Shown piece by piece: positions 43,733 through 47,039 of a stretch of 64,000 bases of DNA. The notes beneath the pieces are model-generated. The model did not search any database, was not told the DNA's origin, and saw only the letters and a list, made by a program, of their open reading frames with translations. Where the stretch lies: the sequence record OR167180; one strand, written 5' to 3'. Source of the stretch: Escherichia phage MIZ4. Each line of letters begins with the position of its first letter. Within the stretch, counting starts at the first letter, position 1. A program made the translations under genes and the position numbers.

Positions 43733-44734
43733 TTAGTAATGGCTAAAACCTTCGGTTACATCTTCAACCACATAGTAACGATGACAGCGCATTTTGGCAT
43801 TCGCATAATCTTTCGGGATACTTACAACGTGACGCGGATCAACTTTACATTTAATGATTCGGCCTCGTCCACCGCCATAGTGCGGAATATAGTGTTTCGC
43901 TGCAACGTGGAGTCCATTAGAGCAAGTGCGATCATCATCTGGGTCCACGTCTTTACGCTTCATTTTAACCGTGCGCCCTGGGCTATTATCAAACGTATGC
44001 GTAAAGAAATCTTTATAATCAACATCAACACGTTTCCATGCATAGAAACAACCATCTTCCCCGATCTCAATGTCGTTGTGCTCTAAGAAGTCAAATAGAC
44101 GATCTACCGCCTTACGGCTAGGGTTTTTCTTGCACTTCTCAAAGAAGTTCAGATAGTGCGTATATGGCTTATTCTCTTTAATCGACTCCACAACTCGACG
44201 AGTCAGATTATTATCAAGAACAATATTATGATAATACACAATACCATTTTCGATACGGAAAGCGCCGTGATAATATACTTCAACCGCTTTCTTAATGTCA
44301 ATCAGCGTAATAGCTTTGATGAAATCATTATGTTTAATCACTTCCAGTGCTTCATTAAAGTTAACATGCGACGGATCAGCAGTATAAACAATGTCACCAC
44401 ATGTAATAGTAATAAACTTAGTTGAGGCTATTGCTACGATTTTTGAGGAAGTAGTCACGGGCTTTTTTGCGCGTTCACCTCCTTTTCCTTTACTGGTTTT
44501 ACGGCGTGCTTTACGTTTTTCTAGTGCCTTGCGACCTTCCGCTACTGCGTCTTTCTGAATCAGTAATACACGGGAAGCAGTACGACGAGATACCCCAAAT
44601 GCTGCCGCAAGTGCTTCGCGGGTAGTAAACTTACCTTCGCCCCACTGTTTAGCCAGTTTGATTTGTTTTTCAGAATCCAGGCATTGAACGTTACGGTCAG
44701 AGACGGTGATTTTTGCTTTAGTCATAGTATTCAT
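43733..44734 (-). CDS. rIIB: rIIB protein
   Basis: ORF track; collinear with T4 rIIB (VSRLFDFLEHNDIEI.EDG.FYAWK, FDNSPG..VKM.R, CSNGLHV, YEVVEDVTE). Confidence 0.92.
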   Translation of the reverse strand: MNTMTKAKITVSDRNVQCLDSEKQIKLAKQWGEGKFTTREALAAAFGVSRRTASRVLLIQKDAVAEGRKALEKRKARRKTSKGKGGERAKKPVTTSSKIVAIASTKFITITCGDIVYTADPSHVNFNEALEVIKHNDFIKAITLIDIKKAVEVYYHGAFRIENGIVYYHNIVLDNNLTRRVVESIKENKPYTHYLNFFEKCKKNPSRKAVDRLFDFLEHNDIEIGEDGCFYAWKRVDVDYKDFFTHTFDNSPGRTVKMKRKDVDPDDDRTCSNGLHVAAKHYIPHYGGGRGRIIKCKVDPRHVVSIPKDYANAKMRCHRYYVVEDVTEGFSHY

Positions 44735-44787
44735 TCCTCTATTAGTTGGGCGACTATCGCCGCCCGATTCACATCATTATACCAGAA

Positions 44788-44919
44788 TTATTTTGCTTCT
44801 ACAACCTTGCGGATTGTGCGGTCTGATACATTATAGATTCGTGCCAGTTCGCCTTTAGTCAAGCCGCGAGCGTATTGTTTACGGATGGTTTCTTTCTGGA
44901 TAGCGGTCAGTTTAGTCAT
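44788..44919 (-). CDS. stand-alone HTH mini-protein (43 aa) resembling the rIIB N-terminus
   Basis: hand-translated MTKLTAIQKETIRKQYARGLTKGELARIYNVSDRTIRKVVEAK; GAGGTGA RBS; below ORF-track cutoff. Confidence 0.5.
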   Translation of the reverse strand: MTKLTAIQKETIRKQYARGLTKGELARIYNVSDRTIRKVVEAK

Positions 44920-44930
44920 AATATCACCTC

Positions 44931-47039
44931 TTAAAATTTAACATTCTTAACCAGTTTCATAAAGTCTTGTGCGCGTTTGTCGTTATGCAGAATACGATAC
45001 CAGTTATCTACAATATCATACAGTAACGGGCTATTCTCTTTAAACTTCGCACAAACTGCTTTAATTCGTTCGTTTGCTGCCGTGAATTTTTCATCACAGA
45101 TCTTTTTAGTTTCTTCGTCCATAATCCAACGAGTATGAAGGAGTAACTTGGAAACCTCTTTATTATAATGACGACCGTACAGTCTGTCAATAAATTCTGG
45201 AACACAGCGTTCTAGTTCATCGTCATGAAACAACATAGTGATCACACCCAGATATTCGCCATACCCCAGATGATTGGTCTTAACCTTCTTAGCCAGACCA
45301 GCCAGCTTACCGCGAACAAATTCTAGCGCACATTCCAATTGTTCGTCAACGAGATATTTTTGTGTCTCGTTACGAGTAATAATATACTTTGTTACCCCGA
45401 AGTAGTCAAGCGCCGTGTGTAATGTATTTTCACTATAGATCGATTTACGACTACGGCTTTCGAATGCATCACCTACGCGGAACATGTGCAAGCCGGATAA
45501 CTCGCGAATCTCTGCCGATTTCATGTGATGGCTGGTTTTATGCCAACTGTCACCAATCTTTTCCATAATATACACGTTAGGCAGCTTAGGAGTCGCTTCA
45601 CGTTGTGTGCGCTCGGTCTTCTCCGGTTTAACTGCTTTAGCACGCAGATCATCGGCCTCAGACACTTTAATCACGGTCATTTCAGAATCATCATAATACT
45701 GTTTGATGTACTCGAAAGTCTCCATATGTTTTTCGTTGCGCTGACGGAACACAAGTACCTTTTTATTGATGCCGTATTCCTGGACCATACCGTTAAGAGT
45801 CAGTGCACGCAGTTTCGGTTTATCGGTATCATCAATAAGACACGTAATATCTTCTTTATGCATCCATACAAAATGCGTAATGTTGTATTGACTGCTAACG
45901 AAAGCAGGGCGCAATTTACTGATTGTGTGACGAGTACGATACAGAGTATACACCTGACCTTCTACGTCATTAGGCGAATCTTTACCCGCATTCACAAACT
46001 TATTATAGATTGCTACCGGATCATCCCACTTCCCGATCTTACCCATCTTGCTAATAATATTGCGTTGAGTCGATGAATACTCGCTCATAAATTGCGCAAG
46101 TTTACGCTCTGTTTTAATGTTGGCGATCTTTTCTTTAACCTTTTCCAACATCATTTCATTGATTTCTGCAATACGTTTTTCGATGTTTGCTTTAGTCTCA
46201 ATTGACAAGTGAACTTCTTCACGCGATGGCATCAGGTCCAGATCACCCAACTCAAAATTAATGTAAATGGTCTGGTGCTGGCGGTTTACAGCTTCTAACC
46301 ATGTTCCGCGAACATATTCATACGGGATCGGATACTGAATCTTACCCATGATTGCATATACTACCCAGGAATCGTTATCACGCCCATTACACACATAATA
46401 ATTATCAAAGCTAGGGAAATAATTAATTTCGATTGCATTGATATTAGGTTTATGTTCCCCAAAATGACGCAGTACAAATTGCGCTTCTCGATGCCATGTC
46501 TGAATATCTTTTTCTTTCACCGGAATAGTGATTTTCAGACCATTGTCTTCATAGGTCGGTTCGTCGAAAATCTGCACCATTTTCGGCATCGAGTTTTGCA
46601 CAAATGCCGTAAAGCCATAAGCGCGACCATTGTAATAGTTTACGATTGTAAAGGTGTCGGTATAGCTATAAGCAGACTTCGCACCCAAACCAAAAGACCC
46701 GATATAGTCATTAGTCTGGTCTTTTGTTGATTCAAAGTAAACCGTAAACAGTTGTTCTAATTCTTTCTTAGACGGAATACCAGTACCATAATCACGCACA
46801 GAAAAATACGGTTCGATTGCAGTCGGTAAATGAATATCAAACGGACGATCTAAGGTTCCGGCTTCTTTGTGAGTGTCGGTAGCATTGCACGAATACTCAC
46901 GGACGCAAGCACGCTCACAATATTGATAAGTGTTCTTAGAAAGCACCATAAAAGCCTTGCTACTTGCTTTCAGTGAAAAATCAACCGCACCGCTCAAGTC
47001 ACTGCCAAATACTTCTTCATTATCAATATGCATTTTCAT
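44931..47039 (-). CDS. rIIA: rIIA protein
   Basis: ORF track; 702 aa, GHKL-like ATPase N-terminus; position adjacent to rIIB. Confidence 0.88.
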   Translation of the reverse strand: MKMHIDNEEVFGSDLSGAVDFSLKASSKAFMVLSKNTYQYCERACVREYSCNATDTHKEAGTLDRPFDIHLPTAIEPYFSVRDYGTGIPSKKELEQLFTVYFESTKDQTNDYIGSFGLGAKSAYSYTDTFTIVNYYNGRAYGFTAFVQNSMPKMVQIFDEPTYEDNGLKITIPVKEKDIQTWHREAQFVLRHFGEHKPNINAIEINYFPSFDNYYVCNGRDNDSWVVYAIMGKIQYPIPYEYVRGTWLEAVNRQHQTIYINFELGDLDLMPSREEVHLSIETKANIEKRIAEINEMMLEKVKEKIANIKTERKLAQFMSEYSSTQRNIISKMGKIGKWDDPVAIYNKFVNAGKDSPNDVEGQVYTLYRTRHTISKLRPAFVSSQYNITHFVWMHKEDITCLIDDTDKPKLRALTLNGMVQEYGINKKVLVFRQRNEKHMETFEYIKQYYDDSEMTVIKVSEADDLRAKAVKPEKTERTQREATPKLPNVYIMEKIGDSWHKTSHHMKSAEIRELSGLHMFRVGDAFESRSRKSIYSENTLHTALDYFGVTKYIITRNETQKYLVDEQLECALEFVRGKLAGLAKKVKTNHLGYGEYLGVITMLFHDDELERCVPEFIDRLYGRHYNKEVSKLLLHTRWIMDEETKKICDEKFTAANERIKAVCAKFKENSPLLYDIVDNWYRILHNDKRAQDFMKLVKNVKF

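What the first reader, a model, noticed from the sequence alone, without database searches (positions are those of the whole stretch)
44788..44919. Stand-alone copy of the rIIB N-terminal helix-turn-helix between rIIA and rIIB
A 43-codon ORF with a good RBS encodes MTKLTAIQKETIRKQYARGLTKGELARIYNVSDRTIRKVVEAK. By eye it aligns with the first ~45 residues of T4 rIIB (LTKNEQAEIVKLYSSGNYTQQELADWQGVSVDTIRRVLKN) at least as well as this phage's own rIIB N-terminus does. It may be a partial tandem duplication of the rIIB 5' end that now makes a separate small DNA-binding protein, or the remnant of an rIIB start rearrangement.
Basis: seen in the sequence. Interest (0 to 1): 0.5.

Follow-up and report, generated by a model that had tools for sequence, protein, structure and literature searches.

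The report
Small free-standing HTH gene between rIIA and rIIB
RB49-type (Krischvirus) phages carry a real, very strongly conserved 43-codon gene between rIIA and rIIB whose small DNA-binding helix-turn-helix protein belongs to the same module family as the head of rIIB, though sequence alone cannot show it was copied from rIIB.

Summary
The ORF is real: minus strand, 44788-44919, 43 codons, strong SD, 11 nt after the rIIA stop. The window is a Krischvirus (100% to phage MIZ5). All 58 Krischvirus genomes in the phage collection have the ORF, annotated only as 'hypothetical' (phrog_15481). Divergent metagenomic relatives keep it at 43-45 aa in the same slot. It is the best-conserved gene of the locus (72-86% identity vs 38-44% rIIA and 55-66% rIIB; dN/dS mostly 0.02-0.13), so it is not a remnant. 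AlphaFold gives a confident three-helix HTH (pLDDT 90.7) and the protein is very basic (pI 10.4).

Similarity to rIIB N-termini is significant. A leave-clade-out rIIB-N HMM scores the ORF at 39.5 bits and the phage's own rIIB HTH at 19.4; hhalign gives 98.9%. The relationship is not exclusive, though. In 1.84 billion proteins its closest modules are C-terminal HTHs of HNH/GIY-YIG homing endonucleases and free small HTHs. It lacks the rIIB 'V-K-C-L' lead-in, and it shares no DNA similarity with its own rIIB 5' end.

Verdict: a free-standing member of the rIIB-head HTH family, sitting exactly where T4's rIIB HTH starts. An old duplication and split is plausible but unproven. Function is untested.

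The parts
44788..44919 (-). Mini-ORF: 43 codons plus TAA. It encodes a 5.0-kDa, pI 10.4 three-helix HTH protein, MTKLTAIQKETIRKQYARGLTKGELARIYNVSDRTIRKVVEAK (predicted helices at residues 6-18, 22-28 and 33-41).
   Evidence: ORF; phrog_15481, E 3e-34; CENP-B_N 26 bits, above the 21.2 cut-off; dN/dS mostly 0.02-0.13; AF2 pLDDT 90.7; pI, charge
44924..44930 (-). Shine-Dalgarno GAGGTGA, directly after the rIIA stop codon. The equivalent GAGGTGA or GAGGTAA is kept in relatives L006, L008, L010 and L012.
44931..47039 (-). rIIA (702 aa), the upstream neighbour. Its stop codon lies 11 nt before the mini-ORF ATG.
   Evidence: (phrog_612, E 2.9e-187)
45162..45190 (-). Consensus sigma-70-type promoter (TTGACA-17-TATAAT, 12/12) inside the 3' end of rIIA, with its -35 hexamer 271 nt upstream of the mini-ORF ATG. 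A promoter is kept at -223 to -261 in L006, L008, L010 and L012. It would produce a mini-ORF + rIIB transcript.
   Evidence: pattern matches only; no transcript data
44776..44784 (-). Extended -10 element TGGTATAAT in the mini-ORF-rIIB spacer. Relatives L008/L009 have a full 12/12 promoter here, and L006 and L012 have 11/12.
   Evidence: read directly from the sequence
44748..44765 (-). GC-rich hairpin GGGCGGC-GATA-GTCGCCC between the mini-ORF and rIIB, with no T-run after it. A hairpin of -14 to -19 kcal/mol is present at this place in all 7 related loci, with different stem sequences.
   Evidence: (RNAfold)
43733..44725 (-). rIIB (330 aa from the annotated start; the longest ORF begins at 44734), the downstream neighbour.
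   Evidence: SD spacing and relatives' N-termini favour 44725
44561..44692 (-). rIIB's own attached N-terminal HTH (residues 15-58 of the 333-aa ORF). It is a diverged paralogous module that keeps the rIIB 'NVQCL' lead-in and is joined to the core by a long helix and a disordered basic linker.
   Evidence: 19.4 bits; AF2: H20-31, H38-44, H49-58 at pLDDT 94-97; residues 82-95 below 50

Best explanation
The ORF is a genuine third gene of the rII locus in the Krischvirus clade. It encodes a free-standing, very basic, 43-residue tri-helical helix-turn-helix module of the same family as the module that heads rIIB in T4-like phages.

Shown: it is a conserved, selected coding sequence with its own strong SD, fixed in the rIIA - mini-ORF - hairpin/promoter - rIIB order. 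It is predicted with high confidence to fold as a DNA-binding-type HTH. It matches the canonical rIIB N-terminal profile about twice as well (in bits) as the HTH still attached to this phage's rIIB. It begins 11 nt after the rIIA stop, exactly where rIIB's HTH begins in T4.

Inferred: it is translated early, from rIIA read-through transcripts and from a conserved promoter inside the rIIA 3' end. It contacts DNA through helix 3 (SDRTIRKVVE, invariant apart from one K/R change across all relatives) as a monomer-sized module. It supplies in trans the DNA-contact function that T4 carries on the rIIB N-terminus, while the attached copy has diverged.

Favoured origin, not proven: an old duplication of the HTH module at the head of rIIB, followed by a split into a separate cistron. 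The relative L005, whose rIIB carries three tandem HTH modules downstream of the free-standing copy, shows that this module does duplicate at this locus.
For: Real gene under selection:
- All 58 Krischvirus records carry it at >=97.7% aa identity.
- Five further clusters are all 43 aa, plus a 45-aa and a 43-aa member.
- Identity to the window is 72-86% for the mini-ORF, against 38-44% for rIIA and 55-66% for rIIB. NG86 dN/dS is 0.02-0.13 for the computable pairs among the 43-45-aa members and 0.33 against L005, with dS about 1-5.
- Within the genus there are 0-3 synonymous and 0-1 non-synonymous codon changes.
- Gap lengths to rIIA (4-16 nt) and rIIB (52-78 nt) vary and are not multiples of 3, so the three genes are translated separately.

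HTH fold:
- AF2 pLDDT 90.7 with three helices.
- Foldseek top matches are the IstA transposase N-HTH (TM 0.79, rmsd 1.0), gamma-delta resolvase, CENP-B and NarL DNA-binding domains.
- Pfam CENP-B_N scores 26 bits, above its 21.2 cut-off. Net charge is +7.

rIIB-head family:
- The best non-self tblastn hits in 50,697 phage genomes are rIIB N-termini (52.5% over 39-40 aa, residues 3-42 of Jiaodavirus rIIB).
- The rIIB-only HMM gives 43 bits. The leave-clade-out HMM gives 39.5 bits (E 1.8e-8 at Z=1e6) against 19.4 for the phage's own HTH.
- hhalign gives 98.9% probability, score 73.8.
- Only 3 of 148 of the mini-ORF's nearest neighbours world-wide score as high on the rIIB-N HMM, and none reaches the 46.1 bits of the L005 copy.

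Positional homology: the T4 and window junctions match (stop, 11 nt, ATG).

Module duplication at this locus: L005 rIIB has 3 HTHs, and HTH2/HTH3 share a 21-nt exact match. P0186 has 2.

Outgroups L013/L014 lack the ORF and have only a hairpin and promoter in the gap.

The attached HTH is an autonomous domain on a flexible tether.
Against: - There is no expression, DNA-binding or phenotype evidence of any kind.
- Origin from rIIB is not shown by sequence. There is no nucleotide similarity to the phage's own rIIB 5' end.
- The signature positions (K-L-T start, R16, R31, N34, S-D-R-T) match homing-endonuclease and free-standing HTHs rather than the canonical rIIB pattern (V-K-C-L, GVS-V-D-T).
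- The mini-ORF profile scores 111-125 against those modules and 73.8 against rIIB-N, while rIIB-N scores 67-79 against them.
- With the mini-ORF HMM the best rIIB N-terminus reaches only 32 bits, the median is 10, and about 20 non-rIIB clusters reach 39-49 bits.
- The NJ bootstrap never made rIIB modules the exclusive sister group. The non-rIIB modules were, however, pre-selected for similarity to the mini-ORF.
- A 43-aa HTH has no dimerisation surface, so sequence-specific DNA binding on its own may be weak.
Confidence: 0.55

Rival explanations
1. Captured module. The mini-ORF descends from the C-terminal DNA-binding HTH of a free-standing homing endonuclease (HNH or GIY-YIG), or from a mobile small HTH gene that landed between rIIA and rIIB and was domesticated. 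Its likeness to the rIIB head would then be only family-level, and it could act as an independent regulator.
For: - The best single-module matches in 1.84 billion proteins are NUMOD4+HNH_3+HTH (P0144, 48.8 bits), HNH_3+HTH (P0162, P0220, P0228), GIY-YIG+HTH (P0195) and free 49-60-aa HTHs.
- The K-L-T/R16/R31/N34/SDRT signature is shared with them.
- hhalign scores 111-125, against 73.8 for rIIB-N.
- The NJ sister group was all non-rIIB in 120 of 200 bootstraps.
- Such endonuclease genes are common in phages (942 records), and T4-like phages are known to carry many (established knowledge).
Against: - Those modules were chosen from a 1.84-billion-protein library for their similarity to the mini-ORF, so their closeness is partly ascertainment.
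- No nuclease remnant is present. Only 4-16 nt separate the rIIA stop from the ATG in all 7 loci.
- The best hit, P0144, sits in an unrelated non-T4-like phage, and the other free small HTHs have no rII context.
- Among isolated phage genomes the best non-self hits are rIIB heads, not endonucleases.
- The mini-ORF is at the extreme top of its neighbours on the rIIB-N HMM.
- The junction geometry is identical to T4's rIIB start.
Confidence: 0.3
2. Protein-interaction or decoy role. The small HTH does not act on DNA. It binds RIIA/RIIB or a host factor, for example shielding RIIB from host sensors or adjusting RII complex assembly.
For: - RIIB is sensed by Lysobacter/Pedobacter CARD-gasdermin systems and is toxic when expressed alone (10.1101/2023.05.28.542683), so there is selective pressure on anything that modulates RIIB.
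- Conservation exceeds that of both partners.
- The protein is too small to dimerise by itself.
Against: - The fold and the nearest structural matches are all DNA-contacting modules.
- The net charge is +7.
- The highest conservation is in the helix 2-helix 3 recognition unit.
Confidence: 0.08
3. Non-functional leftover of an rIIB start rearrangement, or a chance ORF with generic HTH-like composition.
For: It is short, every record annotates it only as 'hypothetical', and the pairwise similarity to the phage's own rIIB is weak (z 4.4).
Against: - dN/dS is mostly 0.02-0.13 with saturated dS.
- The 43-45-aa length, the SD and the position are kept while rIIA falls to 38-44% identity.
- The AF2 fold is confident.
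- Profile similarity to rIIB-N is E 1.8e-8.
Confidence: 0.02

Closest known systems
N-terminal HTH module of T4-type RIIB (T4 rIIB residues ~4-46, the classical 'B1' segment)
   Same: Same three-helix HTH module family: HMM 39.5-43 bits, hhalign 98.9%. Same place relative to the rIIA stop (11 nt, SD, ATG). Same length and helix layout.
   Different: It is not covalently attached to the rIIB core. It lacks the V-K-C-L lead-in and the GVS-V-D-T motif. It is much more basic (pI 10.4 vs 8.1). This phage's rIIB still has its own diverged HTH, so the mini-ORF is an extra copy rather than a displaced one.
C-terminal DNA-binding HTH of phage HNH (NUMOD4/HNH_3) and GIY-YIG homing endonucleases
   Same: Highest single-module sequence similarity (40-49 bits; about 55-58% identity by eye; hhalign 110.8) and shared signature residues.
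   Different: There is no nuclease domain and no room for a remnant (a 4-16 nt gap after rIIA). It stays at a fixed position in one phage clade rather than behaving as a mobile element.
Resolvase/invertase HTH_7, IS21 IstA N-terminal HTH, CENP-B N-domain (tri-helical 'homeodomain-like' DNA-binding modules)
   Same: Predicted fold: TM 0.72-0.79 and rmsd 1.0-1.6 A for the best matches. Pfam CENP-B_N is above its gathering score.
   Different: Those are domains of larger enzymes or regulators that provide dimerisation or catalysis. This is a stand-alone 43-mer. The Foldseek E-values are not significant because the query is so short.
phrog_15481 / Phi1 ORF274 (YP_001469618.1) 'hypothetical protein'
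   Same: It is this gene: E 3e-34 over the full 43-position profile, and 100% identical in Phi1.
   Different: The database entries give no function, no family assignment and no link to rIIB.

Membership tests
rIIB N-terminal HTH module | Significant profile similarity to rIIB N-termini of unrelated T4-like phages | tested here: met
   The leave-clade-out HMM gives 39.5 bits, E 1.8e-8 at Z=1e6. hhalign gives 98.9%, P 2.7e-17. Only rIIB and this ORF hit in the six-frame scan of the window.
rIIB N-terminal HTH module | rIIB-specific lead-in V-K-C-L (Cys in 77 of 123 modules) and the GVS-V-D-T motif | tested here: not met
   The mini-ORF has M-T-K-L-T and NVS-D-R-T. The attached HTH of the same phage keeps NVQCL.
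rIIB N-terminal HTH module | Covalent linkage to the rIIB core domain | tested here: not met
   It has its own stop codon. A 52-78 nt spacer with a hairpin and promoter precedes rIIB, and the frame relation is variable.
rIIB N-terminal HTH module | Starts immediately downstream of the rIIA stop codon | tested here: met
   The gap is 11 nt in the window and in T4, and 4-16 nt in relatives.
rIIB N-terminal HTH module | Closer to rIIB heads than to any other HTH lineage (exclusive common descent) | tested here: inconclusive
   rIIB heads are the best non-self hits among phage isolates. In 1.84 billion proteins, however, about 20 non-rIIB clusters are closer. hhalign gives 111-125 for those against 73.8 for rIIB-N, and the NJ tree is unresolved.
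Tri-helical HTH DNA-binding domain (Pfam CENP-B_N / HTH_7 / HTH_23 / HTH_28 group) | Pfam model hit above its gathering score | tested here: met
   CENP-B_N scores 26.0 bits against a cut-off of 21.2. Sigma70_r4, HTH_28, HTH_7 and HTH_23 are below their cut-offs.
Tri-helical HTH DNA-binding domain (Pfam CENP-B_N / HTH_7 / HTH_23 / HTH_28 group) | Three-helix fold with helix 2-turn-helix 3 | tested here: met
   AF2 pLDDT 90.7 with helices 6-18, 22-28 and 33-41. The IstA, resolvase and CENP-B domains are the top Foldseek matches at TM 0.72-0.79.
Tri-helical HTH DNA-binding domain (Pfam CENP-B_N / HTH_7 / HTH_23 / HTH_28 group) | Binds DNA | not testable with these tools
   Indirect only: net charge +7 and pI 10.4.
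Homing endonuclease (HNH_3 / GIY-YIG with C-terminal HTH) | Nuclease catalytic domain | tested here: not met
   The protein is 43 aa, there is no HNH or GIY-YIG hit, and no coding space lies upstream.
Homing endonuclease (HNH_3 / GIY-YIG with C-terminal HTH) | C-terminal HTH of the K-L-T type | tested here: met
   hhalign 110.8 against five endonuclease HTHs. Signature columns are shared.
Mor/C late activators, sigma-70 region 4 | Family model above threshold and the family's other regions present | tested here: not met
   Mor scores 17.6 bits (cut-off 24.9) and Sigma70_r4 scores 21.1 (cut-off 24.1). Only the HTH part aligns.

The most novel reading that the evidence does not exclude
The rII system of the Krischvirus clade is a three-component system. 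The detached HTH would be a dedicated trans-acting subunit, more constrained than RIIA or RIIB. It might direct the RII proteins to DNA or control their expression. Alternatively it might uncouple the DNA-contact function from the RIIB core so that the core and its attached HTH can diverge under pressure from host sensors such as the CARD/gasdermin systems that detect RIIB. If so, it would finally give a handle on what the 'dispensable' N-terminal segment of rIIB does.
Probability: 0.12. Interest if true: 0.7.

Novelty: new member of a known kind. Interest (0 to 1): 0.4.

Why it matters
rIIA and rIIB are among the most historically important genes in genetics, yet their mechanism is still unknown (PMC2993671). 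RIIB is now known both to counter RexAB and to trigger CARD/gasdermin defence (10.1101/2023.05.28.542683).

From general knowledge of the classical r1589 and Crick frameshift work (not checked in a paper here), the N-terminal HTH of T4 rIIB can be lost without losing rII function, and its role has never been explained.

In Krischvirus a module of the same family exists as a separate gene that is better conserved than either rII gene. It can therefore be deleted, tagged or supplied in trans without touching rIIB. That makes the function of this HTH directly testable in phages that are easy to grow (RB49, Phi1 and many recent isolates).

The finding also corrects a blind spot in annotation: 58 genomes list the gene as 'hypothetical'.

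Tried and rejected
1. Recent tandem duplication. blastn-short and a codon-aligned comparison of the mini-ORF with the phage's own rIIB 5' end found only 7-9-nt chance words and 43% nt identity. Rejected.
2. Decaying remnant. Rejected on dN/dS and length conservation.
3. Read-through or frameshift extension of rIIA, or an upstream exon of rIIB. Gap lengths vary and are not in frame. Rejected.
4. Spacer inverted repeat as an operator for the HTH. The stem sequences differ between relatives while the recognition helix is almost invariant (one K/R change), so an RNA or DNA structure is more likely than a conserved protein site. Not pursued further.
5. Intrinsic terminator after the mini-ORF. No T-run follows the hairpin, and the scanner did not call it.
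6. Solved structures by sequence. No PDB relative of the mini-ORF family (best E 0.2) or of rIIB. The rIIB model has no convincing Foldseek match.
7. Other free-standing HTHs that score high on the rIIB-N HMM (P0197, P0253) and the 5xHTH protein P0126. Their contigs have no rII genes, so the split arrangement does not extend beyond this clade.
8. Literature. Searches for rIIB with helix-turn-helix, RB49, r1589, anti-defence and Krischvirus RNA-seq found no description of this ORF and no expression data.
9. The NJ tree of 39-column modules is too weakly supported to decide the origin (mini-ORF monophyly in only 11 of 200 bootstraps).

Full report
WHAT IS THERE

The window is a Krischvirus (RB49 group). 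A 1.6-kb stretch around the finding is 100% identical to Escherichia phage MIZ5 and 98-99.7% identical to 57 other Krischvirus records.

The ORF lies on the minus strand at 44788..44919. It sits between rIIA (44931..47039, phrog_612 E 2.9e-187) and rIIB (43733..44725 as annotated; phrog_609 E 3e-106). The rIIA stop codon is followed by GAGGTGATATT and then ATG, which is a near-ideal SD with 4 nt (TATT) between it and the ATG.

Public records call the ORF 'hypothetical protein'; in Phi1 it is ORF274, YP_001469618.1. It matches phrog_15481 (unknown function) over the profile's whole 43 positions, E 3e-34.

IT IS A REAL GENE

- All 58 Krischvirus records encode it at >=97.7% aa identity.
- A search of 5.8 billion proteins found five clusters, every one exactly 43 aa, at 98, 86, 86, 77 and 69% identity.
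- The contigs carrying them keep the order rIIA - mini-ORF - rIIB (L005, L006, L008, L009).
- Two more distant rIIB relatives also have a 45-aa and a 43-aa copy in the same slot (L010, L012).

Against these relatives the conservation is:

| Gene | aa identity to the window |
|---|---|
| mini-ORF | 72-86% |
| rIIB | 55-66% |
| rIIA | 38-44% |

Nei-Gojobori dN/dS is 0.02-0.13 for the computable pairs among the 43-45-aa members, and 0.33 against L005, with synonymous sites saturated (dS about 1-5). Within the genus I saw 0-3 synonymous and 0-1 non-synonymous codon changes, against 15-22 synonymous and 4-8 non-synonymous in rIIB.

The gaps to rIIA (4-16 nt) and to rIIB (52-78 nt) vary and are not in frame, so the ORF is translated on its own. 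This rules out the 'remnant' reading.

WHAT THE PROTEIN IS

AlphaFold2 gives a confident compact three-helix bundle: pLDDT 90.7, with helices at 6-18, 22-28 and 33-41. The nearest solved folds are DNA-contacting tri-helical HTH modules:
- IstA transposase N-terminal HTH (TM 0.79, rmsd 1.0 A)
- gamma-delta resolvase
- CENP-B N-domain
- NarL/LuxR-type domains

The Foldseek E-values are not significant because the query is so short. Pfam CENP-B_N is above its gathering score (26.0 vs 21.2 bits); other HTH models fall just below theirs. The protein is 5.0 kDa with pI 10.4 and 11 K+R against 4 D+E. The invariant block across all relatives is TKGELAR-YNVSDRTIR-VVE, which covers helix 2, the turn and the recognition helix.

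IS IT RELATED TO THE rIIB HEAD? YES, SIGNIFICANTLY

1. Shuffle tests. Smith-Waterman against 2000 shuffles gave: T4 rIIB score 47, z 5.8, 0/2000; Jiaodavirus rIIB score 77, z 12.9; own rIIB score 40, z 4.4, 6/2000.
2. Phage genome search. In a tblastn of 50,697 phage genomes, the best hits outside Krischvirus are rIIB genes of Klebsiella T4-like phages (52.5% over 39-40 aa, E 0.02-0.06), followed by Serratia X20, CC31 and Bp7 rIIB. In Jiaodavirus the hit is rIIB residues 3-42.
3. rIIB-only HMM. An HMM built from the first 55 residues of rIIB proteins alone scores the mini-ORF family at 40-48 bits. In a six-frame scan of the 64-kb window only rIIB (50.4) and the mini-ORF (42.7) hit, and the next best is 6.4 bits.
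4. Leave-clade-out HMM. This used 21 rIIB heads from phages whose rIIB C-terminus is <50% identical to this one. It gives the mini-ORF 39.5 bits (E 1.8e-8 at Z=1e6), but only 19.4 bits to the HTH attached to this phage's own rIIB and 17-19 bits to those of its relatives.
5. hhalign agrees:

| Comparison | Probability | Score |
|---|---|---|
| mini-ORF family vs distant rIIB heads | 98.9% | 73.8 |
| clade's attached HTHs vs distant rIIB heads | 97.1% | 49.5 |
| mini-ORF family vs attached HTHs | 93.9% | 34.8 |

It is wrong on the raw pairwise score against T4 alone (47 vs 69).

IS IT SPECIFICALLY A COPY OF rIIB? NOT SHOWN

I searched 1.84 billion representative proteins with the mini-ORF family profile. 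Ranked by best single module, the top matches are not rIIB:
- a NUMOD4+HNH_3+HTH endonuclease (P0144, 48.8 bits)
- HNH_3+HTH proteins (P0162, P0220, P0228; 40-47 bits)
- a GIY-YIG+HTH protein (P0195)
- free 49-60-aa HTHs
- proteins made of 4-7 tandem HTH modules

On the same HMM the best rIIB head reaches 32.4 bits, the median is 10, T4 scores 11.4 and the phage's own HTH scores about 2.

Column signatures point the same way. Canonical rIIB heads have a V-K-C-L lead-in (Cys in 77 of 123) and GVS-V-D-T. The mini-ORF has K-L-T, R16, R31, N34 and S-D-R-T, like the endonuclease and free-standing modules. The attached HTH of this phage keeps NVQCL.

Local hhalign gives the mini-ORF 111-125 against those modules, and gives the rIIB-head profile 67-79 against them, which is as close as rIIB heads are to the mini-ORF. 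The NJ bootstrap never made rIIB modules the exclusive sister group. There is no nucleotide similarity between the mini-ORF and the phage's own rIIB 5' end.

Two caveats cut the other way. The non-rIIB modules were picked from a huge library for their likeness to the mini-ORF. And among those 148 nearest neighbours only 3 score as high as the mini-ORF on the rIIB-head HMM, while none reaches the 46.1 bits of the L005 copy.

P0144 is an ordinary homing endonuclease in an unrelated phage. The other free-standing HTHs have no rII genes near them.

My reading is that rIIB heads, the mini-ORF and the endonuclease HTHs form one module family, and that forty residues cannot resolve descent within it.

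POSITIONAL AND COMPARATIVE EVIDENCE FAVOURING A SPLIT AT THE HEAD OF rIIB

- In T4 the rIIA stop is followed by 11 nt (TAAGGAAAATT) and the rIIB ATG. In the window it is followed by 11 nt (GAGGTGATATT) and the mini-ORF ATG. In Jiaodavirus the two genes abut. In each case the HTH begins 2-5 residues after the Met.
- The relative L005 carries the free-standing copy and also an rIIB of 459 aa with three tandem HTH modules (about residues 1-43, 56-102 and 143-186). HTH2 and HTH3 share a 21-nt exact match, so module duplication does occur at this locus.
- P0186 is an rIIB-type protein with two HTH modules.
- Outgroups L013 and L014 (rIIB about 54% identical over the C-terminal two-thirds) have no mini-ORF. 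Their 84-87-nt gap holds a GGGGCTTCGGCCCC hairpin with a T-run, and a promoter.
- The AlphaFold model of this phage's rIIB shows the attached HTH (pLDDT 94-97) as an autonomous domain. It is joined to the core (98-332) through a long helix and a disordered basic linker (82-95), which is an architecture where a split is easy to tolerate.

EXPRESSION CONTEXT (PATTERN MATCHES ONLY)

- A 12/12 sigma-70 consensus lies upstream of rIIA (47148-47120).
- Another 12/12 site lies inside the rIIA 3' end (45190-45162), with its -35 hexamer 271 nt before the mini-ORF ATG. A site at -223 to -261 is present in L006, L008, L010 and L012.
- The spacer after the mini-ORF has an extended -10 (TGGTATAAT, 44784-44776) and a GC hairpin (44765-44748, no T-run).
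- All seven loci have a hairpin there (-14 to -19 kcal/mol) with different stem sequences. L006, L008, L009 and L012 have an 11-12/12 promoter whose -10 lies in the hairpin loop.

The mini-ORF is therefore the last cistron of the rIIA unit and the first complete cistron of an internal transcript that runs on into rIIB.

LITERATURE

Nothing I could search describes this ORF. The function of rIIA and rIIB is still called unknown (PMC2993671). One comparative study treats rIIB as a specific transcription factor (PMC7824862). RIIB counters RexAB, is toxic when expressed alone, and is sufficient to trigger Lysobacter CARD/gasdermin defence (10.1101/2023.05.28.542683; 10.1101/2025.11.20.689424). RB49 ORFs without T4 orthologues were simply numbered (PMC1524935). 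That the rIIB N-terminal segment is dispensable in T4 is my own recollection of the classical r1589 and frameshift work and was not verified here.

VERDICT

It is an old, strongly selected gene and not a remnant, and its derivation from rIIB by duplication is plausible (I put it near 0.5) but not demonstrated, with capture of an endonuclease-type or free HTH as the main rival (about 0.3). The function is untested. The mechanism I commit to is a trans-acting DNA-contact module working with the RII proteins. It is a new, previously unremarked member of a known kind of protein, of moderate interest mainly because it makes the role of the rIIB HTH experimentally accessible.

Noticed in passing
L005:4685-6064 (ENA ERZ27260015 k141_60519): The rIIB of this metagenomic relative is 459 aa and carries three tandem N-terminal HTH modules (about residues 1-43, 56-102 and 143-186), in addition to the free-standing 43-aa copy upstream. 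HTH2 and HTH3 share a 21-nt exact match, so that duplication is recent. HTH1 resembles the single HTH of outgroups L013/L014. It was the only one of 122 rIIB proteins sampled with more than one module.
   Followed up: partly
window 44748-44765 (-), and the equivalent spacers of L005, L006, L008, L009, L010 and L012: A GC-rich hairpin (-14 to -19 kcal/mol) lies between the mini-ORF and rIIB in every relative. The stem sequences differ while pairing is kept, and no T-run follows. In L006, L008, L009 and L012 the -10 hexamer of a near-consensus promoter sits in the hairpin loop. Its role (RNA stabiliser, processing site, or promoter occlusion) is unknown.
   Followed up: partly
window 45162-45190 (-): A perfect TTGACA-17-TATAAT promoter lies inside the rIIA coding sequence, about 240 nt before its stop. 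It is positionally conserved in four relatives. It would give a transcript whose first complete cistron is the mini-ORF.
   Followed up: partly
window 44725 vs 44734 (-): The longest rIIB ORF starts at 44734 (MNTMTK...), but the SD GAGGA abuts that ATG. The second ATG at 44725 (MTKAK...), which GenBank records use, has normal spacing and matches relatives' N-termini (MPRIGKITESDRNVQ). The 9 nt ATGACTAAA (M-T-K) are identical at the mini-ORF start and at this rIIB start, which is probably coincidence (E 0.11).
   Followed up: partly
P0186 (775 aa, from the representative search): An rIIB-type protein with two N-terminal HTH modules, a middle region of about 480 residues with no assignment, and a clear rIIB C-terminal domain (171.7 bits). 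It looks like an unusually large rIIB architecture.
   Followed up: no
P0126 (276 aa, L022:4073-4903), P0127, P0128 and others: Many proteins consist of 4-7 tandem copies of this HTH module. P0126 has five copies and a hydrophobic C-terminal tail, and P0128 has about eight near-identical repeats. Their function is unknown, and the P0126 contig has no rII genes.
   Followed up: partly
window 43733-44734 (-), model m6bd2ec84289b: The rIIB core (residues 98-332, mostly pLDDT above 80) has no convincing match among solved structures by Foldseek (best TM about 0.2) or by sequence. rIIA gives only weak sub-threshold GHKL ATPase hits (HATPase_c_3, 17.9 bits).
   Followed up: partly
L013:3913-4001 and L014:3916-4001: In outgroup phages without the mini-ORF, the rIIA-rIIB gap contains a GGGGCTTCGGCCCC (CUUCGG-loop) hairpin followed by a T-run and a TATATAAT/TATAAT promoter. 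This is a terminator-plus-promoter unit at the place where the Krischvirus clade has the mini-ORF followed by a hairpin and promoter.
   Followed up: no
P0159 (32 aa): A 32-residue protein, MTKLTAIQKETIRFHFSRGLTKCDVSRMYNFS, shares the first 13 residues exactly with the mini-ORF and then diverges. It could be a truncated contig-end variant, a sequencing error or a divergent allele.
   Followed up: no
phrog_609; L002:656-2824: The PHROG named 'RIIB lysis inhibitor' is a 1055-position profile. The window's rIIA matches its positions 23-320 and rIIB matches 741-1051, so it seems to be built on fused or merged rIIA+rIIB sequences. This probably explains why some records, such as Klebsiella phage ValerieMcCarty01, label rIIA as 'RIIB lysis inhibitor'.
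   Followed up: no
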